A stretch of 64,000 nucleotides of DNA from an uncultured Acidobacteriota bacterium (GTDB lineage Bacteria > Actinomycetota > Acidimicrobiia > Spongiisociales > ZC4RG35). Shown here piece after piece: positions 751 to 38,436 of the stretch. A program made the translations under genes and the position numbers. Positions within the stretch are counted from its first letter, which is position 1. Each line of letters opens with the position of its first letter. Below the pieces are notes generated by a model. That model saw only the letters and a program-made list of their open reading frames with translations. It made no database searches and had not been told where the DNA came from. The stretch spans positions 1,575,581 through 1,639,580 of the forward strand of contig CAVVMG010000001.1 of NCBI GenBank assembly GCA_963749415.1, read 5' to 3'.

Positions 751-772
751 TGTCCCAGGCGCGCCCTACGCT
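751..772 (+). promoter_or_regulatory. PafBC/RecA-NDp-like promoter TGTCCC-N10-TACGCT
   Basis: TGTCCC at 751-756, TACGCT at 767-772, then 6 nt to an in-frame GTG at 779 (leaderless arrangement). Confidence 0.55.
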
Positions 773-778
773 TTTCCC

Positions 779-1555
779 GTGGTAGTCGCCTTTCCCGATG
801 TGGTCGATGGAGACGCCATCCGAGTCTCCGCGACCACATACGTCACCTACAAGAAGTGCCCGGGGCAGGCCAACGCCAGGCTGCAGGGCGTTTTCGGCCC
901 GGATTCGCGTGCCTCATTCCTGGGAAGCCTCGCCCACCGCATGTTCAGCCGGCATCTCACCGCAGGCCCCATCGCCTCCGAGGAGTTCGTGCAGGCGTGC
1001 CGCGAGGAGATCGGAGGGTCGGCCCTCAACCACAAGCTGGGGCCCCTCGAGCTCAAGCCCTCCATCCTGGCCTCGATGATCGAAGAGGTCCGCGGGCTCT
1101 ACGAGCGCTTCACCCGACTACCAACTGAGGGCTTCGAAGGGTCGGAGGTGTCGATCTCGCGGGAGCCGGTCTCCGGTGTCGAGCTGGTCGGCTCGGTGGA
1201 CGCCGTGTATCGGGAGGACCTCGGAGGCCATCGGCTCGTCGACTGGAAGACCGGGGACCTGGGCGAGCCCGAAGATCAGCTTCTCTTCTACGCCCTGCTC
1301 TGGGCGCTGGAGAAGGACGAGCTACCGGCCTACGTGGAGGCGGTGTCGGTCCGCACCGGGGAGCGCTACCGGACTGTTCCCAGCACCGCAGATGTGAATC
1401 GGGTGGCCACGGAGGTGGGAGGCCTGGTCGATGACCTGCGCCGGGCATGGGCCAGCGGGAACGAGCCTGTGCGCCACGGTGGCCCATGGTGCCGGTATTG
1501 CCCGTTGCTCGAGGATTGTGTCGAGGGAAAGGCCGCCGGGGCGCTGCTCGATTGA
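779..1555 (+). CDS. PD-(D/E)XK nuclease, RecB/AddB/Cas4-like, with four-Cys Fe-S staple
   Basis: KKCPG; GSVDAVY...LVDWKTG; QLLFY; C-terminal CRYCPLLEDC. Start moved from 665 to GTG 779 on the basis of the promoter. Confidence 0.8.
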   Translation: MVVAFPDVVDGDAIRVSATTYVTYKKCPGQANARLQGVFGPDSRASFLGSLAHRMFSRHLTAGPIASEEFVQACREEIGGSALNHKLGPLELKPSILASMIEEVRGLYERFTRLPTEGFEGSEVSISREPVSGVELVGSVDAVYREDLGGHRLVDWKTGDLGEPEDQLLFYALLWALEKDELPAYVEAVSVRTGERYRTVPSTADVNRVATEVGGLVDDLRRAWASGNEPVRHGGPWCRYCPLLEDCVEGKAAGALLD

Positions 1556-1568
1556 GCAGCGCCCCGGC
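1535..1568. terminator. Perfect 15-bp inverted repeat between convergent genes
   Basis: GCCGGGGCGCTGCTC-gatt-GAGCAGCGCCCCGGC, spanning the nuclease stop and lying just downstream of the micro-ORF stop. There is no U-tract. Confidence 0.6.
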
Positions 1569-1580
1569 AGGATCCATCCG

Positions 1581-1634
1581 TCAGCAGCAACAGCTCCCGC
1601 CGCCGCAACATCCGGATATGTCGACGGAAATCAT
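1581..1634 (-). CDS. 17-aa cysteine-rich micropeptide MISVDISGCCGGGSCCC (putative metal/metalloid-binding)
   Basis: ATG at 1634 with AGGAAGGAG SD 6 nt upstream, TGA at 1581-1583, hairpin downstream, divergent from arsR. Confidence 0.65.
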   Translation of the reverse strand: MISVDISGCCGGGSCCC

Positions 1635-1649
1635 CTGAGGCTCCTTCCT

Positions 1650-1701
1650 ATCGATGATCTTCGATGTATCGATCTTGGTCGATGGATAGATATGTGTCAA
1701 T
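1650..1701. promoter_or_regulatory. Three tandem ArsR/SmtB-type operators, ATCGA-N6-TCGAT
   Basis: ATCGAtgatctTCGAT (1650), ATCGAtcttggTCGAT (1668), ATAGAtatgtgTCAAT (1686), with exact 18-bp periodicity. Confidence 0.65.
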
Positions 1702-1710
1702 ATGTGGGCC

Positions 1711-2043
1711 ATGGAATTCTGTTGCACGCCGATCTTCGAGGGCGTCATCGATGAGGACGGTGCTGAGGACACCGCCCGGGCGCTTGCTGCCCTGGGCGAC
1801 CCGGTGCGGCTCAGGATCGTCTCCTTGCTCGCCGCGGCGCCGGAGGGGACGGCCTGCGGCTGTGAGCTCGAGTCACCGCTCGGGTTGAGCCAGCCCACCG
1901 TGTCGCACCATCTTCGGATACTCCGTGAGGCGGGTCTGGTCAGCGGACGCAGGGAGGGCCGGTGGGTTCACTATCAGGTGGTGCCCGGTCGTCTCGAGGA
2001 GTTGCGTGAAGCTCTGACCCCTCCTGTGCTCGCCGGCGTCTAG
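1711..2043 (+). CDS. arsR: ArsR/SmtB family metalloregulator
   Basis: ALGDPVRLRIV, CGCELE, LSQPTVSHHLRILREAGLV, REGRWVHY; N-terminal CC. Confidence 0.9.
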   Translation: MEFCCTPIFEGVIDEDGAEDTARALAALGDPVRLRIVSLLAAAPEGTACGCELESPLGLSQPTVSHHLRILREAGLVSGRREGRWVHYQVVPGRLEELREALTPPVLAGV

Positions 2044-2105
2044 CCGAAGCGAAGCAGCCTCCTGGCTGACCTAGGCTCTGCGCCAGTCGACAGGACAGGA
2101 GTTCC

Positions 2106-2537
2106 ATGCAGAGCCGCGCCACCGCAACCTGGGAAGGTGACCTACCCACCGGTTCCGGGACCACGACATTGGCCACCGGCGTCGCCCCACCTCTGCCCGT
2201 GAGCTGGCCGAGCCGCACCGAGGAAGCCGCGGGAAAGACCAGCCCCGAGGAGTTGATCGCCGCCGCTCACGCCGCCTGCTATTCGATGGCGTTTGCCAAC
2301 GGGCTCTCCGGCCGCGGCTTCGTCCCCGATCGCCTGGAGACCTCTGCGGAAGCCACCTTCGAGAAGATGGAGCCCGGATGGCGCCTGACCACCATGGCTT
2401 TGAGGGTCACCGGGAATGTTCCCGGCATCGGGGAGGACGAGTTCCAGGAGGCGGCCGTCGCCGCCAAGGATGGATGCCCGGTGTCCAACGCGCTGAAGGG
2501 GAACGTGAACATCAGCATCGAGGCGTCGCTGGCCTGA
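2106..2537 (+). CDS. osmC: OsmC family peroxiredoxin
   Basis: ATWEGDL, SPEELIAAAHAACYSMA, AKDGCPVSNAL. Confidence 0.92.
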   Translation: MQSRATATWEGDLPTGSGTTTLATGVAPPLPVSWPSRTEEAAGKTSPEELIAAAHAACYSMAFANGLSGRGFVPDRLETSAEATFEKMEPGWRLTTMALRVTGNVPGIGEDEFQEAAVAAKDGCPVSNALKGNVNISIEASLA

Positions 2538-2541
2538 ACGG

Positions 2542-3078
2542 TCAGCCCTGGGTCATCTCGGCGAGCCGGGTGACCGTGTTCCAGTTGCGCATGGTCCCCC
2601 GGATCCCGAGCGTCTTCTCGAAGTAGCCGAGGCCCAACTTCGAACGCCCCTGCCCGTTGGGAAACTCCACGTAGATCTCCTGTCCGGCGACTTCGAAGCG
2701 ATCCGCCTGGAATCGGTCCGGCTCCAGTTCCGCGACCGCGGCCGCTTTCGGTCGGTCTTCGAGAAACACCACGTGGAGTTGGATCGCATTGGATTTATCG
2801 GTGCCAAGGGGGTGAGCTCGGGAAATCGCCGCCAGTTGCCGCCCGCTCCTGGTGATCACGGTTATGTCCAGGCCGAAGCGCTCGGAGATCACGTCGGCCA
2901 CGACCCGCGCATCATCCCGACCCTTGGGCCCGGCGGCGAACACGACATTCCCGCTCTGGACATAGGTGGCCACGTCCTCGAGGCCGGCCTCGTCGAGCGC
3001 CACCTTGAGCTCAGCCATCGGGATCCGGGCTCTGCCCCCCAAATTCACCCCACGCAGCAGGGCAGCAACCCGACTCAC
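2542..3078 (-). CDS. DUF1697 domain protein
   Basis: ALLRGVNLGG, TYVQSGNVVF, TMRNWNTV. The GTG start overlaps the upstream stop (GTGA). Confidence 0.88.
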   Translation of the reverse strand: MSRVAALLRGVNLGGRARIPMAELKVALDEAGLEDVATYVQSGNVVFAAGPKGRDDARVVADVISERFGLDITVITRSGRQLAAISRAHPLGTDKSNAIQLHVVFLEDRPKAAAVAELEPDRFQADRFEVAGQEIYVEFPNGQGRSKLGLGYFEKTLGIRGTMRNWNTVTRLAEMTQG

Positions 3079-3917
3079 CTCGGAGGCCTGACTCCCCTGA
3101 ATTCCCAATCGCCGCCGAGCGCCGTGGAAACGACCTCTTCGGACTCGGTGGGTTGGGCGCCCAGTTCGTCTGCGATCGGAACTTGCCCCTCGACGATGGT
3201 GTTGGTGAGCGCCCCCAGACCTTCCACCTCCACGGTCACCACATCACCGGGCACGACCGGTCGTGACCCTGCCGGCGTCCCGCTCAGGATCACGTCACCG
3301 GGGAACAATGTGATCGTGCGAGCGAGATCGGCCACCAGATACGCCATGTCCCATTCCATCTCCGAGGTGGTGGCCTCCTGGCGAACCTCCCCGTTTACCA
3401 GAGTCCGTATCGACTTTTCGTGGAAGTTCCAATCGTCGATGAGCCCCGGTCCCAGGGGGCAGAGTGTGTCGGAGCCCTTGACCCGCAGCATCGAGCCGGC
3501 ATCGGTGTCCCTGAAGTCATGGAGGCCGAAGTCGTTGGCGATGGTGTAGCCGGCGACGAAGTCGAGCGCCTGGTCCCGCCCGACCCCCTTGCACTCCCTG
3601 CCGATGACGATCGCGATCTCTCCCTCGAAGTTCAGGAACCGGCATCTCGGGGGGCGCACCACATCGCCGCCGTGGGCGTTCAATGCGCTGGTCGGCTTTT
3701 GAAAGTAGGTGGGAGCGGAAGGGAGTCGGGTCATGAACTCGTCCACCCGGCTCCGGTAGTTGAGGTGCACCGCCAAGACCTTCGTCGGCTCCACCGGTGG
3801 AAGGTGTATGGCGGTCGCCAAATCGAAGCGGCGTCCTTCCTCGCCGATCAGATCGTCTCCGTCGCGCACCACCGTGTGCGGGATCGCTCCCACCAGGATT
3901 CGGCGGACCTCGGCCAT
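3075..3917 (-). CDS. Fumarylacetoacetate hydrolase family protein (HpaG-like isomerase/decarboxylase)
   Basis: HLNY, FEGEIAIVIG, YTIAND, KGSDTLCPLGP, PGDVILSGTP. Confidence 0.88.
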   Translation of the reverse strand: MAEVRRILVGAIPHTVVRDGDDLIGEEGRRFDLATAIHLPPVEPTKVLAVHLNYRSRVDEFMTRLPSAPTYFQKPTSALNAHGGDVVRPPRCRFLNFEGEIAIVIGRECKGVGRDQALDFVAGYTIANDFGLHDFRDTDAGSMLRVKGSDTLCPLGPGLIDDWNFHEKSIRTLVNGEVRQEATTSEMEWDMAYLVADLARTITLFPGDVILSGTPAGSRPVVPGDVVTVEVEGLGALTNTIVEGQVPIADELGAQPTESEEVVSTALGGDWEFRGVRPPR

Positions 3918-3970
3918 GACGCCACGGTACCCATGGGGAGTGCCCGATTAAGTTTGGCCGCATACCAGAG

Positions 3971-5233
3971 ATGCCCGCGAACACCCTGCACCAGGACCTC
4001 GGCGAAGTCGATGCCGACATCTTCTCCCATGACACCTACGTCAGGTGCGTTCCTCACGCCGCCTTCGAGCGGATGAGGCGCGAGGAACCGGTGGCTTGGG
4101 TCGAGGAGGGCGATGGCACCGGTTTCTGGGCGGTGACCAGGCACACCGACGTCGAGATCGTCAGCCGCGACTACGGGCTTTTCACTGCGTCCCGTGGGAT
4201 TCGGGTGGAGCAGATGGCTCCAGATGCCCTCGAGGCGCGGAGGACCATGATGGAGTTCGATCCGCCGGAGCACGCTCGGCTGCGGAGGCTGGTCCAGCCC
4301 GGGTTCACGCCCAGAGTCGTTGCCAGCTACGAGGAGGCGTTCCGGGCGCTGGCCGGATACGTTCTCGACAGGGTGCTGCCTCTGGGCGACTTCGACTTCG
4401 TCACCGAGATCTCCCGCGAGCTGCCGATCCGCCTGCTGTGCCGACTGCTCGGCGTCCCCGAGTCCGACGCCTCGAAGCTCGTGGCCTGGGGGGACCAGAT
4501 GATCTCCAATGCGGACCCGGAATACACCCCTGTGGTGATCGATCGTGACGACACCGAGGAGTACCGGTTGCTTCCATTCCGCTCCCCGGCTGCGATCGAG
4601 GTGTTTCGATATGCCGAGGAGATGGCGGTCGAGCGGCGGGCACACCCCCAGGACGACATCATCACGACGCTGCTCCGTGCCGAGCCCGACGGCGAGCCCC
4701 TGACCGATCTCGAGTTCAAGAACTTCTTCACGCTGATGATGGTGGCCGGCAACGAGACCACCAGGCACACGATCAGCCACGGGCTCATCTATCTCACCCA
4801 CCATCCCGATCAGATGGAGGAGCTGCGTGCGGATCCGGCTGGTCTGTCGGTATCCGCCACGGAGGAGATCCTGAGGGCGTCCTCGGTCACCATGCATTTC
4901 CGGCGCACTGCCACAGAAGACACGGAGTTGGGGGGCGAGCACATCGCGCGAGGCGATCGCGTGGTCATGTGGTATTCGTCGGCGAACTACGACGAGGATG
5001 TGTTCGACGACCCATACCGGTTCGACATCCGGCGCTCCCCGAACGACCACCTGACCTTCGGCGCCGGGCGCCACGTCTGCCTCGGGGCATCACTGGCTCG
5101 GCTCGAGGTCCGGGTCGTGTTCGAGGAGTTGCTGAAGCGTGTCGACAGCATCGAGGTCGTTGGTGACCCGATCCGGCTCCGCTCGAACTTCATCAACGGC
5201 ATCAAGCACCTTCCGGTGAGGGTCGTCGCCTGA
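3971..5233 (+). CDS. Cytochrome P450
   Basis: I-helix AGNETT, K-helix EEILR, heme motif FGAGRHVCLG. Confidence 0.95.
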   Translation: MPANTLHQDLGEVDADIFSHDTYVRCVPHAAFERMRREEPVAWVEEGDGTGFWAVTRHTDVEIVSRDYGLFTASRGIRVEQMAPDALEARRTMMEFDPPEHARLRRLVQPGFTPRVVASYEEAFRALAGYVLDRVLPLGDFDFVTEISRELPIRLLCRLLGVPESDASKLVAWGDQMISNADPEYTPVVIDRDDTEEYRLLPFRSPAAIEVFRYAEEMAVERRAHPQDDIITTLLRAEPDGEPLTDLEFKNFFTLMMVAGNETTRHTISHGLIYLTHHPDQMEELRADPAGLSVSATEEILRASSVTMHFRRTATEDTELGGEHIARGDRVVMWYSSANYDEDVFDDPYRFDIRRSPNDHLTFGAGRHVCLGASLARLEVRVVFEELLKRVDSIEVVGDPIRLRSNFINGIKHLPVRVVA

Positions 5234-5253
5234 CCCGGCCCTTCCACACCACG

Positions 5254-6378
5254 ATGCAGCCTCGGTCTCCCGAGGAGGAGCATCGGGTAGCGACCCCGCT
5301 GGAGCTCCTGTTCGACCTGGTGTTCGTGGTGGCGGTGGCCTCCGCCTCCTCCCAGCTCCACCATGGGGTTGCCGATGGGCACGTGATCGACTCGTTGCGT
5401 GGGTACGCCATGGTGTTCTTCGGGATCTGGTGGGCATGGATGAACTTCACCTGGTTCGCCTCGGCCTACGACACCGACGATGTCGCCTACCGGCTCGCAG
5501 TGTTCGTGCAGATCATCGGGGCCCTGATCTTCGCCGCGGGAATATCCCGGCTGTTTGTCGGCGAGTTGCTCCTCGGGGTGATCGGCTACGTCGTCATGCG
5601 TCTTGCCCTCGTTTTTCAATGGACCAGGGCAGCCAGGTCCGACCCGGTCCACCGCGCGTCGTGTCTTCGCTTTGCCATCGGAATCGGGTTGCTCCAGGTG
5701 GCATGGATCGGCCTCCTTTTCATCCCTGACCAATGGGTCCCCTGGGGATTCCTGGTGCTCGCTGCAGGGGAGCTCGCGGTGCCGGTATGGGCGGAGCGGG
5801 CCGCGGGAACGACCTGGCACCCCGAGCACATTGCCGAGCGCTACGGCCTGTTCACGATCATCGTCCTCGGCGAGTCCATCCTCGCCGGGTCCCTGGCCAT
5901 CGAGGCCGTGGCCAGTGCCGGGCTGTTCACGGTCGATCTGGTCTCAACGATCGTCGGAGGCCTTGTGATCGTCCTCGCCATGTGGTGGATCTACTTCGAG
6001 CGACCCTTCCAGTGGCGGTTGGACACTCAGGTCCGGGCCTTCACCTGGGGCTACGGGCACCTCCCCATCTGGGCAGCCGCCGCCGCGGTCGGGGCCGGCC
6101 TCGCGGTCGTCGTCGATCAGGAGATCGGCGAATCCGTCATAGGCTCGTTCGGCGCCGATGCCGCGGTAGCGACCCCGGTTGCGGTGTACCTGCTCGGGCT
6201 GTGGACCCTTCACTTTCCTCTGAGCAAAGCTCCTGCCGACCGCTACCTGGCTCCGGTGGCGGCGGTGCTGATCCTGGTCACTCCGTTCGCTGCCGAGGCG
6301 ACCGTGCTCACCGCACTGGTGCTGGTTGGGTTGGTCGTCGTCAAGGCGGCACTCAACCGGCGAGTGACTTCTCGATGA
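5254..6378 (+). CDS. ltrA: Low temperature requirement protein A family membrane protein
   Basis: ATPLELLFDLVFVVA, HIAERYGLFTIIVLGE; polytopic. Confidence 0.9.
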   Translation: MQPRSPEEEHRVATPLELLFDLVFVVAVASASSQLHHGVADGHVIDSLRGYAMVFFGIWWAWMNFTWFASAYDTDDVAYRLAVFVQIIGALIFAAGISRLFVGELLLGVIGYVVMRLALVFQWTRAARSDPVHRASCLRFAIGIGLLQVAWIGLLFIPDQWVPWGFLVLAAGELAVPVWAERAAGTTWHPEHIAERYGLFTIIVLGESILAGSLAIEAVASAGLFTVDLVSTIVGGLVIVLAMWWIYFERPFQWRLDTQVRAFTWGYGHLPIWAAAAAVGAGLAVVVDQEIGESVIGSFGADAAVATPVAVYLLGLWTLHFPLSKAPADRYLAPVAAVLILVTPFAAEATVLTALVLVGLVVVKAALNRRVTSR

Positions 6379-7732: not shown

Positions 7733-7801
7733 GGAGGGTCAAGGTAGCCATCCGGCGGCGGGTAGTAGGCACCCGCAGGCCTACGATGATCGGCGCCCAC
7801 G

Positions 7802-10062: not shown

Positions 10063-10065
10063 CGG

Positions 10066-10533: not shown

Positions 10534-10609
10534 CGAGTGCCCCTCCGAGATGCTGGTTGACCAGGGTAGTTGGGGCCGGATCGAGCCCGATTGAGGGCCG
10601 GAAGGGTGT

Positions 10610-13501: not shown

Positions 13502-14732
13502 CTAGGGCGGGTCAGGCCCGGTCGTGTAGGTGTGGCCGAGGGGGCTGGTCCACTGGTAGATGCCAGGCTTGGTTCGTTTCATCTTCCATCCGGCATGTTT
13601 GAGCCGGTGGTCGTGTCGACAGAGTGGGGAGAGGTTGTCGGTGGTGGTGGGTCCGCCTTCGACCCAGGCTCTGGTGTGGTCGAGGTCACATTCGGTGGCG
13701 GGCATCCGACATCCCGGGAAGACACAGGTCGGCGTCTGGGTTTGGACTTGGCGGGTCTGGTGAATGGTGGGTCGTCTCCTGGTGGTCCCGGTCCATACCG
13801 GCTCCCCGTTCTCGGTGACGGTGACCCGATGGGTGGAACTGGTCTGCTCCCGGGCTACCTGGCGGGCGATGTCGGCGATCACCGGTCCGTACCCGTTGAG
13901 CTCACCAGGAGCCTCGGGGAGTCCGGCGAGGAGTGGTCAGATCGACGGTGATGTCCACCGTCCCCCGGTCGGCTCCTGAGCCGGCCGTACGACCATGGAG
14001 CAGGTCCAAGAAGACATCGGCTCGGAGCTGGTCGATGGATCGGGACTCGCCCTTGGCGGCAAGCCTCGGGCCAGCCGGTTGATCCGACGCATCACCGCCT
14101 GGGTTTCCGCGGCGGGTAATTGGAGACCGTAGAGGTTGGCGGTCCCATCCGGGTTGGCCTCCGATGCTCACCCGCCGCTCTGTGACACCCTGCTGTAACG
14201 CTTCTTGAGCCGAATCAGGGTCGACGGTGATCACCAGACGGGCGAGACGGGCCCGCAAGCTGTCCGCTGTCGTCTGACCCGACGCCCGTTCCATCGCCTC
14301 GCCTACGACCCGGTTCCGGACCTCGGATTCGAGATGGGAGGTCTGATCCACGATCACCATCGCCCTGGGCACATCCAACAGACCGGACTGCAGCGCCTCC
14401 CACACCTGCGGGTAGTCGACCACAAGTCGCCGGGCGAAACCCAACTGGAATTCCGCCGAACGACGGGTCAGATGCAATGCGGCACGGATCTCATCCGCGG
14501 CGGCATCGGTAGCCAACTCCAGATCCAATTCTTCGGTGGACTCGGCCACTGCGTTCATCGTGGCGTAGACCCGAGCCTGATAGTGATCCGCTTGCCGACG
14601 CTCCGCCCGCAACAACAGCACCCGGTCATGACCCGACAAGGAATCCCGGTCGATCGAAGCCAGAAACCCGGCCAACGCTGGCCCCGGCTCCATCTCGGCG
14701 AGGCCCTTCGGTATACCCGAGCTATCGAACAT
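13502..14732 (-). pseudogene. DUF222 + HNH endonuclease (REP13E12-like), several frameshifts
   Basis: MFD start; AADEIRAALHLT; GLLDVPRA; C-terminal CVFPGC...DLDH...GGPTTTDNLSPLCRHDHRLKH...WTSPLG. Split across frames, either real decay or assembly error. Confidence 0.8.
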
Positions 14733-14740
14733 ATGTTCGT
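14725..14740. promoter_or_regulatory. LexA (SOS) box overlapping the DUF222/HNH start codon
   Basis: TCGAAC-ATAT-GTTCGT versus the actinobacterial consensus TCGAAC-N4-GTTCGA. Confidence 0.8.
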
Positions 14741-14762
14741 AGCGTACCGACCCCCACCGACA
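14741..14762 (-). promoter_or_regulatory. PafBC/RecA-NDp promoter TGTCGG-N10-TACGCT
   Basis: Minus strand reads TGTCGG TGGGGGTCGG TACGCT, an exact match to TGTCGG-N10-TA-N3-T, 8 nt before ATG 14732. Confidence 0.75.
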
Positions 14763-27171: not shown

Positions 27172-27249
27172 ACGACATTCCTTCTCTCGGGGGGTGCAGC
27201 GTACGCCGGGCAATTCACCTTGTATGGCGCAATCTGTATTTTGAGCGGC

Positions 27250-29715: not shown

Positions 29716-29720
29716 GTTGG

Positions 29721-31079: not shown

Positions 31080-31086
31080 GTGATGG

Positions 31087-31272
31087 TCAGGACTCGGGGG
31101 TGACGCGCTCGTCCTCGACGGCCTCGGTTGCCTCGACCTCGGAAGGGGCATTTCCCCCACGTGCCATGCGCATCCGCATCGCCTTGAAGGCGACCCCGAT
31201 GCCGGCCGCGCCGGCGATCACTGCCTGGAGGATGAGGCTCCCCGATCCTGCGTCCAAATATCCGAAAATCAT
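31087..31272 (-). CDS. 61-aa single-TM protein with YLDxGxGS motif
   Basis: MIFGYLDAGSGSLILQAVIAG; AGGAG SD; ends 7 nt before the NoeA-like gene. Confidence 0.75.
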   Translation of the reverse strand: MIFGYLDAGSGSLILQAVIAGAAGIGVAFKAMRMRMARGGNAPSEVEATEAVEDERVTPES

Positions 31273-31393
31273 TGCTCGGCTCCTAGAGAGAGGCCACCGT
31301 TTCCGGGGGCCGCAGGAACATTGTCGTCTAAGTCGGCAGTCAAGCAAACACCTGTAGTTGGTTTTCGGGTAATTCTCCTGTTACCCGGCCGGG

Positions 31394-32223: not shown

Positions 32224-32552
32224 CTGGACTCCCGGAGGCGCTTCAGCTCCTGCTGCTCGGCGATTCGTCGTTTCCTTCTCCGGCGGTAGGTGAAGCCGAC
32301 GAGCGCAGTGAGGAGCACGGCGACCGCCGCAGTGATCAGGATGACCAGGGCCAGCGGGTATTCCCCCTCCAGCCAGAGGAAGTGCACGGGGACGGGCTCG
32401 GTGTTCTGGACGGCGAACACCACGGTGAGACTGATACCGAAGATTGCGATCAGGGCGCCCCAGGGGAACCCGGGCCCGGGCTCGACAGTCGGCTCCGGGG
32501 TGGCGGGCCGCTCCTCCTCGGGTGGCGAAGTCTCGAATGGATCGTCGGTCAT
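32220..32552 (-). CDS. LapA/DUF1049 family membrane protein
   Basis: VFAVQNTEPVPVHFL, PLALVIL, basic coiled tail. Confidence 0.8.
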   Translation of the reverse strand: MTDDPFETSPPEEERPATPEPTVEPGPGFPWGALIAIFGISLTVVFAVQNTEPVPVHFLWLEGEYPLALVILITAAVAVLLTALVGFTYRRRRKRRIAEQQELKRLRESS

Positions 32553-32609
32553 TGCAGGCAAGCCTATGCGTCCACCGTGCGACGGGCCACATGGCATAAC
32601 CTGCCTCCG

Positions 32610-33797
32610 ATGCGGCGCCTGTTGCCCATCACCCTCGTCGCCCTTCTCGCCTGCACCGGGGACTCCGCCACGTCGACGACGACGACCATCGACTCGCCGA
32701 CGACCAGCGCCGTGGAGACGAGCACCACTGCCGCCTCCACCACCTCGCCATCGACCACCGCGGCGCCCACGACGACCAACACGATCAACCTCGAGGACAC
32801 AGTCCTCGCTTATGCACCGATCGCCGAGATCAACTTCCCGGTGCAGATGACGGCCCGAGCCGGGGAACCCCTTGCCTACATCATCACCAAGGATGGGCGG
32901 GTCTGGGCCTACGACGGATCAGCGATCGCGGAGGCACCGGTCCTTGACATCTCCGACCAGGTCACCAACCAGGCCGAGCAAGGGTTGCTCTCGATCGCCC
33001 TGCACCCGACCGACCCAAGGCTCTATCTCCATTACACAGACAACAACGGAGACACCGCTGTCTCCGAATTCACGCTGACTTCGCCCACCGAGGCCGACCC
33101 CGCGAGCGAGAGGCCCATGCTCAGCGTCGAGGACCCGGCGCCCAACCACAACGGGGGGATGCTCCAGTTCACACCCGATGGAACTCTCATGCTCGGCCTC
33201 GGAGACGGGGGAGGAGCCGACGACCGTTACGGGAACGGACAGAACCCGGACACGCTTCTCGCCAGCCTGGTCGAGATGCGGGTCGACGGCGATCCGAGCC
33301 CGTTCAAATACGCAATGGGGCTCCGCAACCCATGGCGATTCTGGATCGACGGGGAGACGCTCTACGTCGCAGATGTCGGCCAAGACGAGTTCGAGGAGGT
33401 CAATGTGGTCCCCCTCGCCCCCGGCGCCAACTATGGGTGGCCGATCTCGGAGGGGCTGCACTGCTTCCAGGCGGCGGCAGGCAGCTGTGACACCTCGGGG
33501 CATGTGATCCCGGTGCTCGAAGTCGAGCATGGTGATGCGGGCACGTGTTCCATCACCGGTGGCTTCGTCTATCGCGGATCGGCGATTCCGCAGCTCAACG
33601 GCCACTACTTCTATTCGGACTACTGCGGTGGGTACCTGCGGAGCTTCCTCTACGCCGATGGCAGCGCCACCGCACAGCGTGACTGGACGGAACAAGTTGG
33701 TGTCGCCGGCGAGGTCACCGGGTTCGGCATCGACGGCCAGGGTGAGATGTACGTTGCCACCAAGGGCGAGTTGCTCCGGGTGGTTCCGGCGGGCTGA
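32610..33797 (+). CDS. PQQ-dependent glucose/sorbosone dehydrogenase lipoprotein
   Basis: LLAC lipobox, Thr-rich linker, EQGLLSIA, NHNGG, GLRNPWR, DVGQ, NYGWP, SITGG. Confidence 0.88.
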   Translation: MRRLLPITLVALLACTGDSATSTTTTIDSPTTSAVETSTTAASTTSPSTTAAPTTTNTINLEDTVLAYAPIAEINFPVQMTARAGEPLAYIITKDGRVWAYDGSAIAEAPVLDISDQVTNQAEQGLLSIALHPTDPRLYLHYTDNNGDTAVSEFTLTSPTEADPASERPMLSVEDPAPNHNGGMLQFTPDGTLMLGLGDGGGADDRYGNGQNPDTLLASLVEMRVDGDPSPFKYAMGLRNPWRFWIDGETLYVADVGQDEFEEVNVVPLAPGANYGWPISEGLHCFQAAAGSCDTSGHVIPVLEVEHGDAGTCSITGGFVYRGSAIPQLNGHYFYSDYCGGYLRSFLYADGSATAQRDWTEQVGVAGEVTGFGIDGQGEMYVATKGELLRVVPAG

Positions 33798-33819
33798 ACT
33801 CCCCGAATAGGCTCGACCA

Positions 33820-34257
33820 ATGCCCACGTTGTTCACCAGGATCATCGAGGGCGAGATCCCGGGCACGTTCGTCTGGCAAGACGACCGGGCGGTTGGGTTC
33901 ATGTCGATCAACCCATTGCGCCCGGGCCACACCCTCGTGGTGCCCCGCGAGGAGATCGACCATTGGATCGACTGTCCGCCCGATCTGGGTGAGCATCTCC
34001 TGGAGGTGGCGCGGACCATCGGCCGCGCCCAGATGCAAGCCTTCAGGCCGGAGCGAATCGGCCTGGTGATCGCCGGTCTGGAGGTCCCGCACCTGCATCT
34101 CCATGTGGTGCCGATCGACAGCGCCCGCGACCTCGACTTCGCGAGGGCGGCCTCCTCGGTGGAGCCGGCGGAGCTCGATGAGGCGGCGGCGGCGATTCGC
34201 TACGTGCTGCGTTCGCTTGGCCACGAAAGCGTGAGCGACGGAGCGGGCGGCCACTAG
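33820..34257 (+). CDS. HIT family hydrolase
   Basis: FTRIIEGEIP, GHTLVVP, HLHLHVVP. Confidence 0.92.
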   Translation: MPTLFTRIIEGEIPGTFVWQDDRAVGFMSINPLRPGHTLVVPREEIDHWIDCPPDLGEHLLEVARTIGRAQMQAFRPERIGLVIAGLEVPHLHLHVVPIDSARDLDFARAASSVEPAELDEAAAAIRYVLRSLGHESVSDGAGGH

Positions 34258-34259
34258 AC

Positions 34260-35090
34260 GTGGAGGTCGTCTTCGGGGGGATCAGCTCGCTCCTCTACGG
34301 CGTCGCCGACTTCCTCGGCGGTGAAGGAGCGAAACGGGTTCCCGCGGCGTCGGTGGTGTTGTGGGCCGGACTGGTCAGTTTCCCGATCCTGACGGTTGTC
34401 GCCATCGTGATCGGTGGTGAGACCCTGGTCTCCGACTACTGGCTTGGGGCCCTGGCCGGGTTGTCGGGCGCCGTCGGGCTGGTCGCCCTGTTCGCCGGCC
34501 TCAGCCGCGGTCAGGCTGCGGCAGTGGCGCCGGTCTCTGCCGCCCTGGGAGCAACCATCCCGGTGATGGTCGCCGTGATCGGCGGGGAGAGGCCGTCCTT
34601 GCTCGCTTGGATCGGGGTGGTGGCCGCCATCCCCGCAGTGTTGCTGTGTGCCTGGGTCGCCGACCCCGGGGAGGTTCCCGGCGGTGGGTTCTTCTACGGC
34701 GTGGTGGCAGGTCTCGGGTTCGGCGGGTTCACCACGATCTTCCGGCTCACCTCGGAGGAGTCGAATCTCCTGCCCCTGATTGCGTCGCGCGGAGCCTCCA
34801 TCGTCCTCATCCTCGCCATCGCCCTGCTCGGCTACTGGAAGGTCACCGGTCCCCGCCAGGTCCCTTTCAAGCTGGTGGCGACGAGTGGGCTGTTCGACGT
34901 GACCGCCAATGTCTCCCTCCTACTCGCAGTGCGCGCCGGCTCGTTGGCCCTGGCTGCGGTCGCCTCGGAGTTCTATCCGGCGGTCACCGTGCTCCTCGCC
35001 CGGATTGTCAACTCGGAGCGTCTGCTGCCCCGCCAGATCATGGGCCTGGTCCTCGCTCTGTTTTCGCTGACCGCGATCGCCCTGGGTTAG
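34260..35090 (+). CDS. EamA/DMT family transporter
   Basis: YGVADFLGG, VAPVSA, YPAVTVLLA..ERL; about 10 TM segments. Confidence 0.82.
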   Translation: MEVVFGGISSLLYGVADFLGGEGAKRVPAASVVLWAGLVSFPILTVVAIVIGGETLVSDYWLGALAGLSGAVGLVALFAGLSRGQAAAVAPVSAALGATIPVMVAVIGGERPSLLAWIGVVAAIPAVLLCAWVADPGEVPGGGFFYGVVAGLGFGGFTTIFRLTSEESNLLPLIASRGASIVLILAIALLGYWKVTGPRQVPFKLVATSGLFDVTANVSLLLAVRAGSLALAAVASEFYPAVTVLLARIVNSERLLPRQIMGLVLALFSLTAIALG

Positions 35091-35521
35091 CCCCGAACCA
35101 CGAGCCAGGTGCCGAAGATCACCATGGCGATGCCGAGAAGCCGCGGCCCATCCAGGGGTCTGGCCTCACCGAACCAGCCGAAATGCTCGATGAGGGCGCC
35201 AAGGACCAGGGTGGCGCCGGTGAAGAGGGTCAGCCCTGCCCCGAGGCCGAGCCGGGAGACGCTGACTCCGAGGGACGAAACCACTACCAGCCCCATCAGC
35301 CCCGCGGTGAACACCCACCACGGGAGGGCGCGCAGCTCGGACAGCTTCCCGCCCTGCAGGGCCAGCATGAGGATCGTGATCGCCAGACCCCCGCCGCCAT
35401 AGGTCACGAAGGTCGACGCGAGGGTGCCTACCCGCTGCTCCATGACACCGAGGAACTGGGACTGCAAGGCGCCGGCGAGACCACCGAGTACGGCTATTAC
35501 GACAACGACTGCGAGGCTCAT
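35087..35521 (-). CDS. YdcZ-type small DMT transporter
   Basis: GLAGALQ, PWWVFTAGLMG, IEHFGWFG, RLLG. ATG overlaps the mgs stop (ATGA). Confidence 0.8.
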   Translation of the reverse strand: MSLAVVVVIAVLGGLAGALQSQFLGVMEQRVGTLASTFVTYGGGGLAITILMLALQGGKLSELRALPWWVFTAGLMGLVVVSSLGVSVSRLGLGAGLTLFTGATLVLGALIEHFGWFGEARPLDGPRLLGIAMVIFGTWLVVRG

Positions 35522-36672
35522 GTCGGCCAATGGTGGTCTGCGGCGGCCTCGTAGTCACGGATCGTGTCCTCCAGGTGCCCGATTGCGGCCGTATAGCCCC
35601 GGGGCACCCATTCCAGGGTGTACGAGATGACCCGGTGCAGCCAGAGCCGGAATGCCAGTCGCTCCCACCCCGGTTCGTCGAGCTCGAACCCGTCGTGGAG
35701 GAATCGCAGCGTGGCGAGCCAGGTCGATGCGTCCATGAGTGTGGGCAGGGGGTGGGCCGGGTCGGCCAGACGCTCGATGCGGCCGGCGTCCGGCATCCCT
35801 GCCATCAGGTCGCTCTCCCCTTCCTCAAGCGGTGTTGATAGAAGGGCGGTTGTCTCGTCGAGGTCGTAGGCAACCGTGGTGAGCAGGTCGGGCGGGACCG
35901 GCTGGGGGGGATCGCTGCCATGACGGGCCCGGGCGTCGGGCCCGGGGAGCCCGCGCAACGAGACCGCCGCCGCCAGGCACTCGATGAGCATCGGTCGCAA
36001 CTCCTCCAGCGAGCCATAGAGGCTGTGCCTCTTCCCGTCGGCGACATGGTGCTCGTAGAGGCCGAGCCCCATCACCGCAGTGGCATAGGTGAGGACGGTG
36101 TCGATCCCCCAGTCCGAGCGGTCCCGCACCAAATCGGAGTGCGCGAGGAGCTGGAGGGCGGGCCGGGTGAGGAGGAGCTCGCCCCCAAGTGGCTGATCGA
36201 GGCGAGGCAGGAAGGTGCCCGGGAAGAGAAGGGCCAGGCTGGGCCGGGTCACCATCCACGTGATCATGGCATCGGTGGCGGCACGCGGGAACCGGTGCCT
36301 GACCACGCCGTATCCCCGGTCGGCAGCGGCCTCCGCGCCATCGATCCAGGAGTGATCGAAGTTGGTTATGTCGGCGTCGAAGAAATGAGCCCGCTCCCAC
36401 CCCTGTTCGGCCGCGGCAGCGATTGCGGTGTTAATGGCGTCACCCTTGCCGGGCCGGAAGCGGCCGATTCTCTCCTGGGCCAGGACGAGCACCGGCTTGC
36501 CCCAACTGCCAGCGATGTCCTCGCTCAATGCCGTGACTCGGGCAGTCTGGGAGCTATCGGTTGCGGCAACTGCCCAGACCTCGGTTACTCCGTCATGGGC
36601 CGCTGCGGTCTTCAGGTTGGCACCCACGATCGCCGGATCCTCGTCCTTGAAAGGGAACACCACCAGGCTCAC
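35518..36672 (-). CDS. mgs: Mannosylglycerate synthase (GT78)
   Basis: SLVVFPFK, QERIGRFRPGKGDAINTA, HFFDADIT, FPRAATDAMITWM, QPLGGELL, RSDWGIDT, GKRHSLYG, matching the recalled Rhodothermus marinus Mgs motifs along the whole length. Confidence 0.85.
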   Translation of the reverse strand: MSLVVFPFKDEDPAIVGANLKTAAAHDGVTEVWAVAATDSSQTARVTALSEDIAGSWGKPVLVLAQERIGRFRPGKGDAINTAIAAAAEQGWERAHFFDADITNFDHSWIDGAEAAADRGYGVVRHRFPRAATDAMITWMVTRPSLALLFPGTFLPRLDQPLGGELLLTRPALQLLAHSDLVRDRSDWGIDTVLTYATAVMGLGLYEHHVADGKRHSLYGSLEELRPMLIECLAAAVSLRGLPGPDARARHGSDPPQPVPPDLLTTVAYDLDETTALLSTPLEEGESDLMAGMPDAGRIERLADPAHPLPTLMDASTWLATLRFLHDGFELDEPGWERLAFRLWLHRVISYTLEWVPRGYTAAIGHLEDTIRDYEAAADHHWPT

Positions 36673-36698
36673 CCTCGTCACCCTACGAGACCGGTTCC

Positions 36699-36720
36699 TG
36701 TCCCCGGCGAGGTCTACTCT
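36699..36720 (+). promoter_or_regulatory. PafBC/RecA-NDp-like promoter TGTCCC-N10-TACTCT for herA
   Basis: TGTCCC at 36699-36704, TACTCT at 36715-36720, 7 nt to ATG 36728. Confidence 0.55.
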
Positions 36721-36727
36721 CGCCGCG

Positions 36728-38401
36728 ATGGAGGAGATGGTCGGTCGGGTGATCGGGACCGTCGACGCCACCCCGCTCGAGTTCTGGGTGGGCGTTGCCG
36801 ACGGCGAGTATCTGGAGCTCGACGACGTGGTCGCACTGGAGCGAGTGCTTCCCTCCGGTGAGTTGGTGAAGATATTCGGGACGGTGAGCCAGGTCCGGGC
36901 CCGTCACGAGGGGGCCCGCTTCGACTCCGATGTCTTCCTCATCGAGGACGGAGTGCTGCCCGCGGAAGTGGTCGAGGCGGCGCAGATCACAGCCACCAGG
37001 ATCGAACCCGAGATCTTCGTGCCCCCTCGGCCGGGGCAGCCTGTGCGGCGAGCGCAGGGCAAGGAGCGTGATCAGGCGCTGTTCTTCGACCGCATGGATC
37101 GCAAGTTCCCGGTGGGAGCCTCCCGCAACGGACAGCCTCTGTTCGCCAATTTCGAGTTCCTCAACGGGCAGCGGGGCGCCCATGTCAACATCTCCGGGGT
37201 CTCAGGGGTGGCCACCAAGACCAGCTACGCCACTTTCCTGCTCCACTCCCTGTTCACCTCCGGCGTACTGGGAGCTGCGGCAGTCAACACCAAGGCCCTG
37301 ATCTTCAACGTCAAGGGCGAGGACTTGCTCCACATCGACCGCCCCAATCGCAGCCTCGACGACGACGCCCGTCGCCGTTACCAGGATCTCGACCTGCCCG
37401 CCGCGCCGTTCGACTCGGTGGGGCTGTTCGCTCCGCCCCGGCCTGGATCCGACAAGGCGGTTGCCGAGGTCAGCTCCCGTCCCGACATCACGTCGTTCTT
37501 CTGGACCCTCGCCGAGTTCTGTCATGAAGATCTGATGGTCTTTCTCTTCGCCGACGCCGAAGACGAGCGGGCGCAGTACACGATGGTCGTCTACAACGTC
37601 ATGGCTCAGTTGAGGCATGCCGAAGAGGCCGCCGGGGGCTCGGTGAGGGTCGAGGGTGAGACCGTGCGCACCTTCCGCGAGCTCGTCGACCTGGTCACCA
37701 GGAAAGTGCAACAGGACGACACCAATAGCGAGTGGGCCGGTCCCCACATCGGGCAGGGCACGGTCAATGCCTTCGTCCGCCGGCTCCAGGGATCGGTGCG
37801 CCACGTCGAGCGCCTGATCCGGGGGGACATCGCCAACCCGGCGCGGCACAACATCGATGTCCAGGGCCACCAGGTGACAGTGGTCGACCTCCACAACCTG
37901 AACGATCGAGCGAAGCGGTTCGTGGTCGGGGTAACGGTGAGGCGCGCCTTCGAGGACAAGGAGAATGCCGGGCAGTCCGAAGAGCTGCTGTTCCTGGTCC
38001 TCGACGAGTTGAACAAGTACGCCCCGAGAGAGGGCTTCAGCCCGATCAAGGAGGTGCTCCTCGACGTGGCGGAGCGGGGCCGGTCGTTGGGGGTGATCCT
38101 GATCGGGGCGCAGCAGACAGCTTCCGAGGTGGAGCGCCGCATCATCGCCAACTCCTCGATCAGGGTCGTTGGCCGACTGGACTCGGCCGAGGCATCACGC
38201 GAGGAGTACGGGTTCCTGCCGGCCGCGCAACGGCAGCGGGCAACGATCCTCAAGCCGGGCACCATGCTCCTCGCCCAACCGGAGCTTCCCGTGCCCCTGG
38301 TCCTCGAATTCCCATTCCCCGCCTGGGCGACCCGGGCATCTGAGGCCGGCCTCCTTCCCACCCTCGACGATTCGCCGGGCGACCCCTTCCAGGATCTCTA
38401 G
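36728..38401 (+). CDS. herA: HerA ATPase/helicase
   Basis: N-terminal HAS-barrel-like VGRVIG; HVNISGVSGVATKTSY; FNVKGED; VLDELNKYAP; ERGRSLGVILIGAQQ. Confidence 0.85.
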   Translation: MEEMVGRVIGTVDATPLEFWVGVADGEYLELDDVVALERVLPSGELVKIFGTVSQVRARHEGARFDSDVFLIEDGVLPAEVVEAAQITATRIEPEIFVPPRPGQPVRRAQGKERDQALFFDRMDRKFPVGASRNGQPLFANFEFLNGQRGAHVNISGVSGVATKTSYATFLLHSLFTSGVLGAAAVNTKALIFNVKGEDLLHIDRPNRSLDDDARRRYQDLDLPAAPFDSVGLFAPPRPGSDKAVAEVSSRPDITSFFWTLAEFCHEDLMVFLFADAEDERAQYTMVVYNVMAQLRHAEEAAGGSVRVEGETVRTFRELVDLVTRKVQQDDTNSEWAGPHIGQGTVNAFVRRLQGSVRHVERLIRGDIANPARHNIDVQGHQVTVVDLHNLNDRAKRFVVGVTVRRAFEDKENAGQSEELLFLVLDELNKYAPREGFSPIKEVLLDVAERGRSLGVILIGAQQTASEVERRIIANSSIRVVGRLDSAEASREEYGFLPAAQRQRATILKPGTMLLAQPELPVPLVLEFPFPAWATRASEAGLLPTLDDSPGDPFQDL

Positions 38402-38414
38402 GAGTCCCAGGATC

Positions 38415-38436
38415 TGTCCCACCCCGGTCCTACGAT
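38415..38436 (+). promoter_or_regulatory. Internal PafBC/RecA-NDp-like promoter TGTCCC-N10-TACGAT before sbcD
   Basis: TGTCCC at 38415-38420 and TACGAT at 38431-38436, in the herA-sbcD gap. Confidence 0.55.

What the first reader, a model, noticed from the sequence alone, without database searches (positions are those of the whole stretch)
751..38436. Four DNA-repair/nuclease genes share a TGTC(C/G)(C/G)-N10-TACNNT promoter: a PafBC-like regulon with a TGTCCC variant
Seen: TGTCCC-N10-TACGCT (751-772, Cas4/RecB-like nuclease), TGTCCC-N10-TACTCT (36699-36720, herA), TGTCCC-N10-TACGAT (38415-38436, before sbcD) and TGTCGG-N10-TACGCT (minus strand 14741-14762, DUF222/HNH). All four have identical spacing and sit 6-8 nt before a start codon. 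I did not see the motif with this spacing before the metabolic genes I checked, although the check was not exhaustive. Established: TGTCGG-N10-TA-N3-T is the LexA-independent RecA-NDp promoter activated by the WYL-domain regulator PafBC in mycobacteria. Inference: this lineage has a PafBC-like damage regulon with shifted specificity (TGTCCC) that drives an archaeal-style resection operon and an orphan Fe-S nuclease.
Basis: partly seen in the sequence, partly recalled or inferred. Interest (0 to 1): 0.78.

Follow-up and report, generated by a model that had tools for sequence, protein, structure and literature searches.

The report
PafBC DNA-damage promoters in an Acidimicrobiia genome
Four DNA-repair and nuclease genes in this window carry the two-part promoter used by the actinobacterial DNA-damage activator PafBC, so this is an expected extension of a known regulon to an uncultured branch of the phylum, with small differences in the promoter's flanking bases.

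Summary
All four sites exist at the stated coordinates (4 matches against 0.14 expected). They belong to a genome-wide promoter class. TGTCNN-N10-TANNNT occurs 41 times at spacing 10, against a mean of 11.2 at 13 other spacings. Twenty of the 41 sit 6-8 nt before a start codon opening at least 100 aa, against a mean of 1.6.

Genes behind these sites include recA, dinB, ku, uvrB, lhr, an adnAB-like pair, dnaB, two Cas4-like PD-(D/E)XK nucleases, herA, sbcD-sbcC-nurA, eight DUF222(/HNH) paralogues and a LAGLIDADG endonuclease.

The genome is an uncultured Acidimicrobiia. It encodes pafB-pafC in the canonical mpa-dop-pup-proteasome-pafA locus, and PafB keeps the two arginines that read GTC in M. 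smegmatis (PMC8635444).

The "TGTCCC specificity" claim is overstated. Hexamer positions 5-6 carry only 0.4-0.5 bits here (CC 10, AC 8, GG 5), and the core and spacing are unchanged. There is, however, a class-level bias at position 6 in recA promoters: C in 8 of 11 Acidimicrobiia, G in 41 of 43 Actinomycetia.

Verdict: a real feature, correctly read in outline, and a new member of a known kind. No expression data could be obtained.

The parts
751..772 (+). PafBC-type promoter: -26 element TGTCCC, 10-nt spacer, -10 TACGCT
   Evidence: Exact match. PWM score 17.9. The same pattern lies at the same distance in 8 of 26 orthologous loci, G000 included; this is 7 of 24 without the unpublished G011 and G021.
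779..1555 (+). Cas4/AddB-like PD-(D/E)XK nuclease gene, 258 aa, GTG start 6 nt after the -10 (leaderless type)
   Evidence: Pfam PDDEXK_1, E 1.2e-18. Cysteines at 27, 238, 241 and 247 form C...CX2CX5C.
14741..14762 (-). PafBC-type promoter: TGTCGG, 10-nt spacer, TACGCT, preceded by GGAATTC
   Evidence: PWM score 23.5. The motif-plus-SOS-box architecture recurs in 21 of 29 loci of this DUF222 subfamily, or 20 of 28 without the unpublished G011.
14726..14739 (.). LexA/SOS-box-like palindrome CGAACATATGTTCG, which overlaps the DUF222 start codon
   Evidence: One of 17 genome-wide CGAAC-N4-GTTCG sites. Others lie before lexA (3 boxes), recA, dnaE2 and uvrA.
13902..14732 (-). DUF222 gene, a truncated 276-aa copy with no HNH match
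   Evidence: Pfam DUF222 only. It is 57-63% identical to two longer paralogues that carry near-identical promoters.
36699..36720 (+). PafBC-type promoter of herA: TGTCCC, 10-nt spacer, TACTCT
   Evidence: PWM score 23.4. The pattern is present before herA in 20 of 26 evaluable orthologous loci, including all 11 same-genus relatives with an intact 5' region.
36728..38401 (+). herA, 557 aa, ATG 7 nt after the -10
   Evidence: phmmer hit to PDB 7f6d chain B (HerA), E 1.6e-144. There was no Pfam hit at E<=0.001.
38415..38436 (+). Second, internal PafBC-type promoter, 14 nt after the herA stop: TGTCCC, 10-nt spacer, TACGAT
   Evidence: PWM score 26.2. Present at the herA 3' end in 15 of 27 loci, including all 12 same-genus relatives that have herA.
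38444..38467 (+). Leaderless 7-codon mini-ORF whose stop overlaps the sbcD start (ATGA)
   Evidence: The arrangement is kept in G000 and its 5 closest relatives, with differing peptides.
38464..39594 (+). sbcD (Mre11-like), 376 aa
   Evidence: Pfam Metallophos from residue 1, plus SbcD_C.
39591..41921 (+). sbcC (Rad50-like), 776 aa, overlapping sbcD by 4 nt
   Evidence: Pfam AAA_23 and SbcC_Walker_B.
41918..42820 (+). nurA, 300 aa, overlapping sbcC by 4 nt
   Evidence: Pfam NurA, E 8.9e-5, 22.5 bits against a cut-off of 21.

Best explanation
The four sites are promoters of the PafBC (RecA-NDp) DNA-damage regulon of an uncultured Acidimicrobiia bacterium.

The proposed mechanism follows M. smegmatis. 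After DNA damage, the PafB-PafC heterodimer (HTH-WYL-WCX proteins) is activated by single-stranded DNA. PafB's recognition helix then reads the GTC core of the -26 element, and the complex bridges to SigA region 4 in place of a -35 contact ('sigma adaptation'). The housekeeping RNA polymerase therefore starts about 7 nt after the TANNNT -10.

At most sites here that start point coincides with the start codon, giving leaderless mRNAs. In the window this would switch on:
- a Cas4-like nuclease;
- herA, and separately sbcD-sbcC-nurA from a second promoter;
- a truncated DUF222 gene that is additionally shut by LexA at an SOS box over its start codon.

Shown here: the motif class, its spacing, its link to start codons and repair genes, its conservation in relatives, the presence of canonical pafBC, and conservation of the GTC-reading arginines.

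Inferred: binding by PafBC, damage inducibility, and the transcription start points.
For: Motif statistics:
- One search finds 4 matches against 0.14 expected.
- In one search, TGTC[CG][CG]-Nx-TANNNT gives 18 sites at x=10 against 1-9 at 11 other spacings.
- In one search, TGTCNN gives 41 at N10 against a mean of 11.2. Twenty of these have a start codon at +6..+8 opening at least 100 aa, against a mean of 1.6.
- In one search, 25 sites score above 18 bits against 0 in the reversed-sequence null. This is partly circular, because 26 training sites built the PWM.

Genes behind exact-pattern sites (Pfam):
- recA, dinB-type IMS, Ku, UvrB and Lhr;
- a UvrD+PDDEXK helicase-nuclease followed by a second one;
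- two PDDEXK_1 nucleases, herA and sbcD;
- seven DUF222(/HNH) genes and a LAGLIDADG endonuclease.
That is 18 of 41 exact sites.

Non-training PWM hits add a PDDEXK_5 nuclease and SSB.

Regulator:
- Three WYL genes were found.
- Two are tandem, 307 and 309 aa, with WYL+WCX and HTH_PafC+WYL+WCX. They lie in the order mpa-dop-pup-proteasome-pafA-pafB-pafC-tatC.
- PafB aligns to M. smegmatis PafB of the RNAP-PafBC structure 7p5x (E 1.1e-25). Its helix AFHRMFERDK keeps R46 and R50.
- PMC8635444 (passages read) states that these two arginines read the GTC triplet, and gives the consensus tGTCgg(N10)tA(N3)T.

Phylogenetic footprint:
- herA promoter present in 20 of 26 evaluable loci, and sbcD promoter in 15 of 27.
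- DUF222 promoter plus SOS box in 21 of 29 loci.
- A motif lies before recA in 11 of 12 Acidimicrobiia-labelled and 43 of 43 Actinomycetia genomes, but in only 1 of 13 non-Actinomycetota.

A LexA system coexists, as in mycobacteria. lexA carries three boxes, and recA has a box 44 nt upstream of its TGTC.
Against: - There is no direct evidence of transcription, start sites or damage induction. No RNA data could be obtained for this organism.
- The promoter of the Cas4-like nuclease is kept in exact register in only 8 of 26 orthologous loci, and in 5 of 13 within the genus. That gene may be a variable or recent regulon member.
- Some exact-pattern sites precede genes with no obvious repair role: thymidylate kinase, FhaA, a 62-aa ORF with a metallophosphatase, and two proteins without a family. 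At least one site lies antisense inside a gene.
- My own gene caller was unreliable, so no formal functional-enrichment statistic was computed.
- Binding of this PafBC to CC/AC-type elements rests on analogy with M. smegmatis.
Confidence: 0.87

Rival explanations
1. The TGTC element is read by a different factor, while PafBC does something else here. Candidates are the third HTH-WYL-WCX protein of this genome or a ClgR/ClpR-type regulator, which was once credited with RecA-NDp.
For: A third WYL regulator exists. PMC3381160 (passages read) records the earlier attribution of RecA-NDp to ClpR.
Against: The third WYL gene sits next to its own 10-nt-arm palindrome (ATGCGGACAG...CTGTCCGCAT), which has only one other copy in the genome. 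That fits a small separate regulon. The non-palindromic TGTC + N10 + -10 geometry, the conserved PafB arginines and the canonical pafBC locus all match the PafBC mechanism solved by cryo-EM (PMC8635444).
Confidence: 0.06
2. These are constitutive housekeeping promoters of a lineage-specific type that lacks a -35, and are not a damage-inducible regulon.
For: The -10 is an ordinary SigA-type TANNNT. Leaderless genes are common in the phylum (recalled, plus the Cortes et al. citation seen in the reference list of PMC8635444). A few member genes (tmk, fhaA, dnaB, gyrB) are housekeeping.
Against: Only about 30 sites exist in a genome of roughly 2,400 crude gene calls. They concentrate on recA, repair and nuclease genes. 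Several (recA and four DUF222 genes) also carry LexA boxes.
Confidence: 0.05
3. Chance, or shared ancestry of duplicated DNA.
For: The three TGTCGG promoters belong to paralogous DUF222 genes with near-identical upstream sequence.
Against: No shuffle reaches 4 matches. There is a sharp spacing peak. The other members are unrelated genes with different spacers. The motif is conserved in orthologous loci while the spacer varies.
Confidence: 0.01

Closest known systems
Mycobacterial PafBC / RecA-NDp regulon (M. smegmatis, M. tuberculosis)
   Same: - Bipartite promoter with a GTC-core element 10 nt upstream of a SigA-type TANNNT and no canonical -35.
- pafB-pafC after pafA in the Pup-proteasome locus.
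- PafB R46 and R50 conserved.
- Members include recA, uvr genes, adnAB and 13E12/DUF222 genes.
- Overlap with LexA boxes at recA and DUF222 genes.
(PMC8635444, PMC8223512 and PMC3381160, passages read.)
   Different: - Hexamer positions 5-6 are mostly CC or AC here, rather than gg.
- The base before TGTC is mostly C rather than T, and is preceded by an A/T-rich AAWT block.
- The residue before R46 is His rather than Ser.
- The regulon here includes herA and sbcD-sbcC-nurA.
- I could not check whether any of this is listed for M. smegmatis, because the regulon tables are in supplements that were closed.
LexA/SOS regulon with the actinobacterial SOS box TCGAAC-N4-GTTCGA
   Same: CGAAC-N4-GTTCG boxes lie before lexA (three boxes), recA, dnaE2, uvrA, a DnaQ-GIY-YIG exonuclease, a second IMS polymerase and four DUF222 genes.
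   Different: Of the four sites in the finding, only the DUF222 gene has such a box. herA, sbcD and the Cas4-like nuclease have none.
DriD of Caulobacter and other single-chain WYL activators
   Same: They are WYL-domain, ssDNA-sensing, SOS-independent activators of damage genes (abstracts seen in the listing).
   Different: DriD is a homodimer. The promoter class here is non-palindromic and fused to the -10 at a fixed distance, which is the PafBC heterodimer mode.
Bacterial HerA-NurA (PDB 7f6d) with SbcCD
   Same: HerA is 1.6e-144 to the 7f6d HerA chain. NurA, SbcD and SbcC domains follow in one gene string.
   Different: Here the string carries two PafBC-type promoters. How these genes are regulated in other bacteria was not examined.

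Membership tests
PafBC-dependent (RecA-NDp) promoter class | A GTC-core element at about -26, a fixed 10-nt gap to a TANNNT -10, and no canonical -35 | tested here: met
   Searches show a sharp peak at N10 only. The PWM core TGTC holds 7.2 bits.
PafBC-dependent (RecA-NDp) promoter class | 'gg' at hexamer positions 5-6 of the published consensus tGTCgg (at most 50% conserved in M. smegmatis) | tested here: not met
   Of 41 exact sites, CC 10, AC 8, GG 5 and AG 3. These positions carry 0.4-0.5 bits. The positions are weak in the type organism too, so this is not a core defining feature.
PafBC-dependent (RecA-NDp) promoter class | Located before recA and other DNA-repair genes, partly overlapping the LexA regulon | tested here: met
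PafBC-dependent (RecA-NDp) promoter class | Transcription start about 7 nt after the -10, induced by DNA damage and dependent on pafBC | not testable with these tools
   No RNA run was listed for this sequence.
PafB/PafC transcription activator | Two adjacent HTH-WYL-WCX genes downstream of pafA in the Pup-proteasome locus | tested here: met
   The PafB HTH was not matched by a Pfam model, but it aligns from residue 4 to M. smegmatis PafB.
PafB/PafC transcription activator | PafB helix-3 arginines R46 and R50, which read the GTC triplet | tested here: met
   The alignment shows RMFERDK identical. The role of these residues comes from PMC8635444.
PafB/PafC transcription activator | ssDNA binding by the WYL domains, and contact of the PafC HTH with SigA region 4 | not tested
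   No structure prediction or residue check of the PafC/SigA contacts was made.
LexA SOS box (at the DUF222 site) | Palindrome CGAAC-N4-GTTCG at a promoter, with lexA present and carrying the same boxes | tested here: met
Cas4/AddB-type Fe-S PD-(D/E)XK nuclease (window 779-1555) | PD-(D/E)XK domain plus one N-terminal and three C-terminal cysteines (CX2CX5C) | tested here: met
   Pfam PDDEXK_1 and the cysteine pattern. Cluster binding itself is not testable here.
HerA-NurA / SbcCD end-resection module | HerA ATPase, NurA nuclease, and SbcD and SbcC encoded together | tested here: met
   The NurA match is only just above the cut-off (22.5 against 21 bits).
DUF222/HNH (13E12-type) endonuclease (window 13902-14732) | DUF222 domain followed by an HNH nuclease domain | tested here: not met
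   The window copy has DUF222 only and is 276 aa. Paralogues of 351-412 aa do have HNH.

The most novel reading that the evidence does not exclude
The -26 element has been retuned in the deep-branching classes. PafB of Acidimicrobiia (and Nitriliruptoria) carries a basic residue (H, R or K) immediately before the GTC-reading R46. This residue would add a contact that favours C at hexamer position 6, that is, G on the other strand.

Supporting observations:
- In 14 genomes with paired data, all 4 with C at position 6 have H, R or K, while 7 of 8 with G have S, N, D or E.
- 80 of 80 Acidimicrobiia PafB loci have H or R at this position. That set is biased by the search pattern.
- The DUF222 selfish-type nucleases keep the GG form plus a LexA box across the order, which would give them a different activation threshold.

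The comparison is confounded by relatedness and uses one promoter per genome.
Probability: 0.2. Interest if true: 0.5.

Novelty: new member of a known kind. Interest (0 to 1): 0.35.

Why it matters
- It places the PafBC sigma-adaptation regulon in uncultured Acidimicrobiia. The published cross-species recA alignment covered 14 Actinomycetia only (PMC8635444 legend), and no paper in the library holds both 'Acidimicrobiia' and 'PafBC'.
- It predicts that a HerA-NurA-SbcCD end-resection module and two Cas4-like nucleases are damage-inducible.
- It shows that dual PafBC+LexA control of DUF222/13E12 genes, known from M. tuberculosis, is shared across classes.
- The natural variation at the element's flanks, and at PafB residue 45, offers a ready set of variants for testing how the -26 element is recognised.
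- None of this overturns current understanding. The literature already expected the pathway throughout the phylum.

Tried and rejected
- **RNA evidence:** The look-up of sequencing runs was unreachable four times. It then listed no RNA holder. This is no evidence either way.
- **Gene caller:** my crude codon-usage caller chose the wrong strand at the adnAB-like locus and elsewhere. I therefore dropped the planned formal enrichment test and used spacing controls instead.
- **Family searches that gave nothing:** NCBIfam gave no name for PafB, PafC, HerA or the nucleases. Pfam missed HerA at E<=0.001, and the PDB sequence search settled it.
- **Weak PWM candidates judged probable false positives:** a site antisense inside a gene at C1:134021, metK, an isochorismatase, an AraC-type gene and an ABC ATPase.
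- **Unknown 236-aa protein:** the ESM Atlas look-up gave only a weak HTH_23 lead.
- one search was rejected for a search term starting with a hyphen. It was corrected.
- **M. smegmatis regulon tables:** these are supplements and were not seen. I cannot say whether sbcCD or Cas4-like nucleases are listed members there.
Full report
**Observation.** Dinucleotide-preserving shuffles expect 0.14, and none of 100 shuffles reaches four. The flanking sequence shows a start codon soon after three of the -10 hexamers:
- GTG at 779, six nt after the -10;
- ATG at 36728, seven nt after;
- ATG at 14732 on the minus strand, eight nt after.

At the fourth site an ATG also lies seven nt after the -10 (38444). 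It opens only seven codons, and its TGA overlaps the true sbcD ATG at 38464. That true start follows an AAGGAGG and matches the Metallophos model from residue 1.

**The motif is a genome-wide class.** The window lies in a 2.66-Mb, 65% G+C genome of three contigs.
- TGTC[CG][CG]-Nx-TANNNT gives 18 sites at x=10 and 1-9 at the eleven other spacings tried. TGTCCC alone gives 10 against 0-1.
- For TGTCNN, spacing 10 gives 41 sites, of which 20 have a start codon at +6..+8 opening at least 100 aa. The thirteen other spacings average 11.2 and 1.6.
- An alignment of 26 promoter-like sites gives a PWM. TGTC holds 7.2 bits, the -10 T, A and T about 2 bits each, and an upstream A-A-T-T-C block 0.5-1.0 bit per position. 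Hexamer positions 5 and 6 hold only 0.4 and 0.5 bits.
- With that PWM, 25 sites exceed 18 bits against none in the reversed sequence. This is partly circular, since the training sites are among them.

**What lies behind the sites.** Pfam scans and one PDB sequence search identify the genes directly downstream.
- Repair and replication: recA (TGTCCC), a dinB-type IMS polymerase, Ku, UvrB, Lhr, and DnaB (-10 TAGAAA).
- Helicase-nucleases: a UvrD+PD-(D/E)XK protein followed by a second one, an adnAB-like pair.
- Small nucleases: two 258-261-aa PDDEXK_1 proteins, both with C...CX2CX5C cysteines. One is the window gene at 779.
- End resection: herA (E 1.6e-144 to HerA of PDB 7f6d) and sbcD, followed by sbcC and nurA with 4-nt overlaps.
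- Selfish-type nucleases: eight DUF222 or DUF222-HNH paralogues and a free-standing LAGLIDADG endonuclease.

Eighteen of the 41 exact-pattern sites precede such genes.

PWM hits outside the training set add a PDDEXK_5 nuclease, the main ssb and gyrB.

Sites before thymidylate kinase, FhaA, a 62-aa ORF with a metallophosphatase, and two proteins without any family are of unclear meaning. At least one exact match lies antisense inside a gene and is probably chance.

**The regulator.** The genome has three WYL-domain genes. Two are adjacent, 307 and 309 aa, overlapping by 4 nt. One carries WYL+WCX and the other HTH_PafC+WYL+WCX. They lie in the order AAA-ATPase (Mpa-type), Dop-type Pup ligase homologue, Pup, proteasome, PafA-type Pup ligase, pafB, pafC, then tatC. 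This is the locus used in the literature to define PafBC orthologues (PMC6789036, methods passage read).

PafB aligns over its whole length to M. smegmatis PafB from the RNAP-PafBC cryo-EM entry 7p5x (E 1.1e-25). Its recognition helix reads AFHRMFERDK against AFSRMFERDK. According to PMC8635444 (passages read):
- the in vivo consensus is tGTCgg(N10)tA(N3)T, with lower case meaning at most 50% conservation;
- only the GTC triplet is read base-specifically, by R46 and R50 of PafB;
- PafBC replaces the -35 contact of SigA region 4.

Both arginines are present here. The third WYL protein (HTH_11+WYL+WCX) sits beside its own palindrome and is treated as a separate matter below.

**Taxon and comparison with other genomes.** The closest RecA and PafB sequences in named public genomes are all from Acidimicrobiia metagenome bins, plus Aquihabitans.

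In 80 recA loci an NGTCNN-N10-TANNNT site lies upstream of recA as follows:

| Group | Loci with a site | Position 6 |
|---|---|---|
| Acidimicrobiia-labelled | 11 of 12 | C in 8 of 11 |
| Named Actinomycetia | 43 of 43 | G in 41 of 43 |
| Ambiguously labelled Actinomycetota | 10 of 12 | not used for the comparison |
| Non-Actinomycetota | 1 of 13 | not applicable |

It is a bias at a weakly informative position, the genomes are kin, and G000 itself uses GG, GT, AT, CT and AG at other promoters.

**Conservation of the four window promoters.** The sample was 30 relatives of the same order.
- **herA:** the pattern lies 28-53 nt before the start in 20 of 26 evaluable loci. This includes all 11 same-genus relatives with an intact 5' region. 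The spacer varies.
- **sbcD:** the internal promoter is present in 15 of 27 loci, including all 12 same-genus relatives that have herA.
- **Cas4-like nuclease:** the exact pattern is present in only 8 of 26 loci, and 5 of 13 in the genus. Several relatives keep the -10 and the start codon but have lost the register or the TG of the element. Its membership looks evolutionarily labile.
- **DUF222 subfamily:** 21 of 29 loci have GGAAT(C/T)-TGTCNN-N10-TANNNT together with a CGAACNNNNGTTCG box at or just before the start codon. NN is GG 11, TG 3, CC 2, AG 2, and AC, TC and GC 1 each.

These counts include the unpublished genomes G011 and G021. Without them the counts are 19 of 25, 14 of 26, 7 of 24 and 20 of 28.

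**LexA.** lexA is present, with three boxes in its own upstream region. The 17 CGAAC-N4-GTTCG sites also lie before:
- recA, 44 nt upstream of its TGTC;
- dnaE2 and uvrA;
- a DnaQ-GIY-YIG exonuclease;
- a second IMS polymerase;
- an AlkB-like oxygenase;
- four DUF222 genes.

Two damage systems with overlap at recA and the 13E12/DUF222 family is what is described for M. tuberculosis (PMC3381160 and PMC8223512, passages read).

**Mechanism and confidence.** I take the four sites to be PafBC-dependent promoters working by sigma adaptation, giving leaderless transcripts at three of them (confidence 0.87). The sequence class, the regulator, its reading residues, the gene content and the conservation are shown. 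Binding, induction and start sites are inferred.

Rivals are another regulator reading TGTC (0.06), constitutive promoters without a -35 (0.05) and chance or duplication (0.01).

**Novelty.** The literature already states that RecA-NDp extends beyond mycobacteria and that the pathway probably spans the phylum. The published cross-species alignment holds 14 Actinomycetia and no Acidimicrobiia (PMC8635444 legend). No paper in the searched library holds both 'Acidimicrobiia' and 'PafBC'.

This is therefore a new member of a known kind. Its new content is:
- herA and sbcD-sbcC-nurA as members with two promoters;
- two Cas4-like nucleases as members;
- the CC/AC flank bias.

**The boldest reading still open.** PafB's residue before R46 may have co-evolved with position 6.
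- It is H or R in 80 of 80 Acidimicrobiia PafB loci. That set is biased, because one search pattern contained the His.
- In 14 genomes with paired data, the four with C at position 6 have H, R, R or K. Seven of the eight with G have S, N, D or E, and one has K. The two with T have Q and K.
- This is one or two evolutionary events at most, and it uses a single promoter per genome.

**Limits.**
- No RNA run was listed.
- Supplementary regulon tables could not be read.
- My gene calls were too crude for a formal enrichment test.

Noticed in passing
window 38444-38467; L110-L114 (relatives): A leaderless 7-codon mini-ORF starts 7 nt after the sbcD-promoter -10 and ends in an ATGA overlap with sbcD. 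The arrangement is kept in G000 and its 5 closest relatives, with different peptides. In more distant same-genus relatives sbcD itself starts at +7 as a leaderless gene (VTVKILHTSDWH...). This looks like termination-reinitiation coupling that arose by a ~20-nt insertion.
   Followed up: partly
G000 C1:2490345-2490367 (L025 6345-6367) and C1:1083473 region: A third HTH_11-WYL-WCX regulator has a 10-nt-arm palindrome (ATGCGGACAG-N3-CTGTCCGCAT) about 20 nt before its start. The only other copy lies before a DrrA-like ABC ATPase. This is probably a small separate WYL regulon. Both copies were picked up by the TGTCCG-N10-TANNNT scan by accident.
   Followed up: partly
window 13902-14732 (-): The window's DUF222 copy is 276 aa with no HNH match. 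Paralogues and orthologues have open frames of about 350-490 aa. It is probably a decayed copy that keeps an intact promoter and SOS box.
   Followed up: partly
G000 C1:2326799 promoter, gene 2326833-2327543 (L006): The highest-scoring PafBC-type promoter in the genome (31.9 bits) precedes a 236-aa protein with no Pfam or NCBIfam family. The ESM Atlas gives only a weak HTH_23 lead. It is a candidate unknown damage-response protein.
   Followed up: partly
G000 C1:2038671-2040143 (L024 12672-14144, -): The proteasome genes read as one 490-aa open frame with two Proteasome-domain stretches. This may be a PrcB-PrcA fusion, or two genes merged by my ORF call.
   Followed up: no
G000 C1:1970408 promoter, gene 1970436-1970954 (L018): A free-standing LAGLIDADG homing-type endonuclease carries a PafBC-type promoter (TGTCAT, 23.3 bits). 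Like the eight DUF222 genes, it is a selfish-type nuclease wired to the damage response.
   Followed up: no
G000 whole genome: TGTCNN-N15-TANNNT is mildly elevated, at 21 sites against about 11 for other off-spacings. This is unexplained. TGTC may be acting as part of a -35-like hexamer.
   Followed up: no
G000 C1:1672330-1677605 (L157): Two adjacent UvrD+PD-(D/E)XK helicase-nucleases (adnA/adnB-like) sit behind a TGTCAC promoter. A second Cas4-like PDDEXK_1 gene with its own TGTCGT promoter lies 1.4 kb upstream on the same strand, with a glutamate-dehydrogenase gene on the other strand between them.
   Followed up: partly
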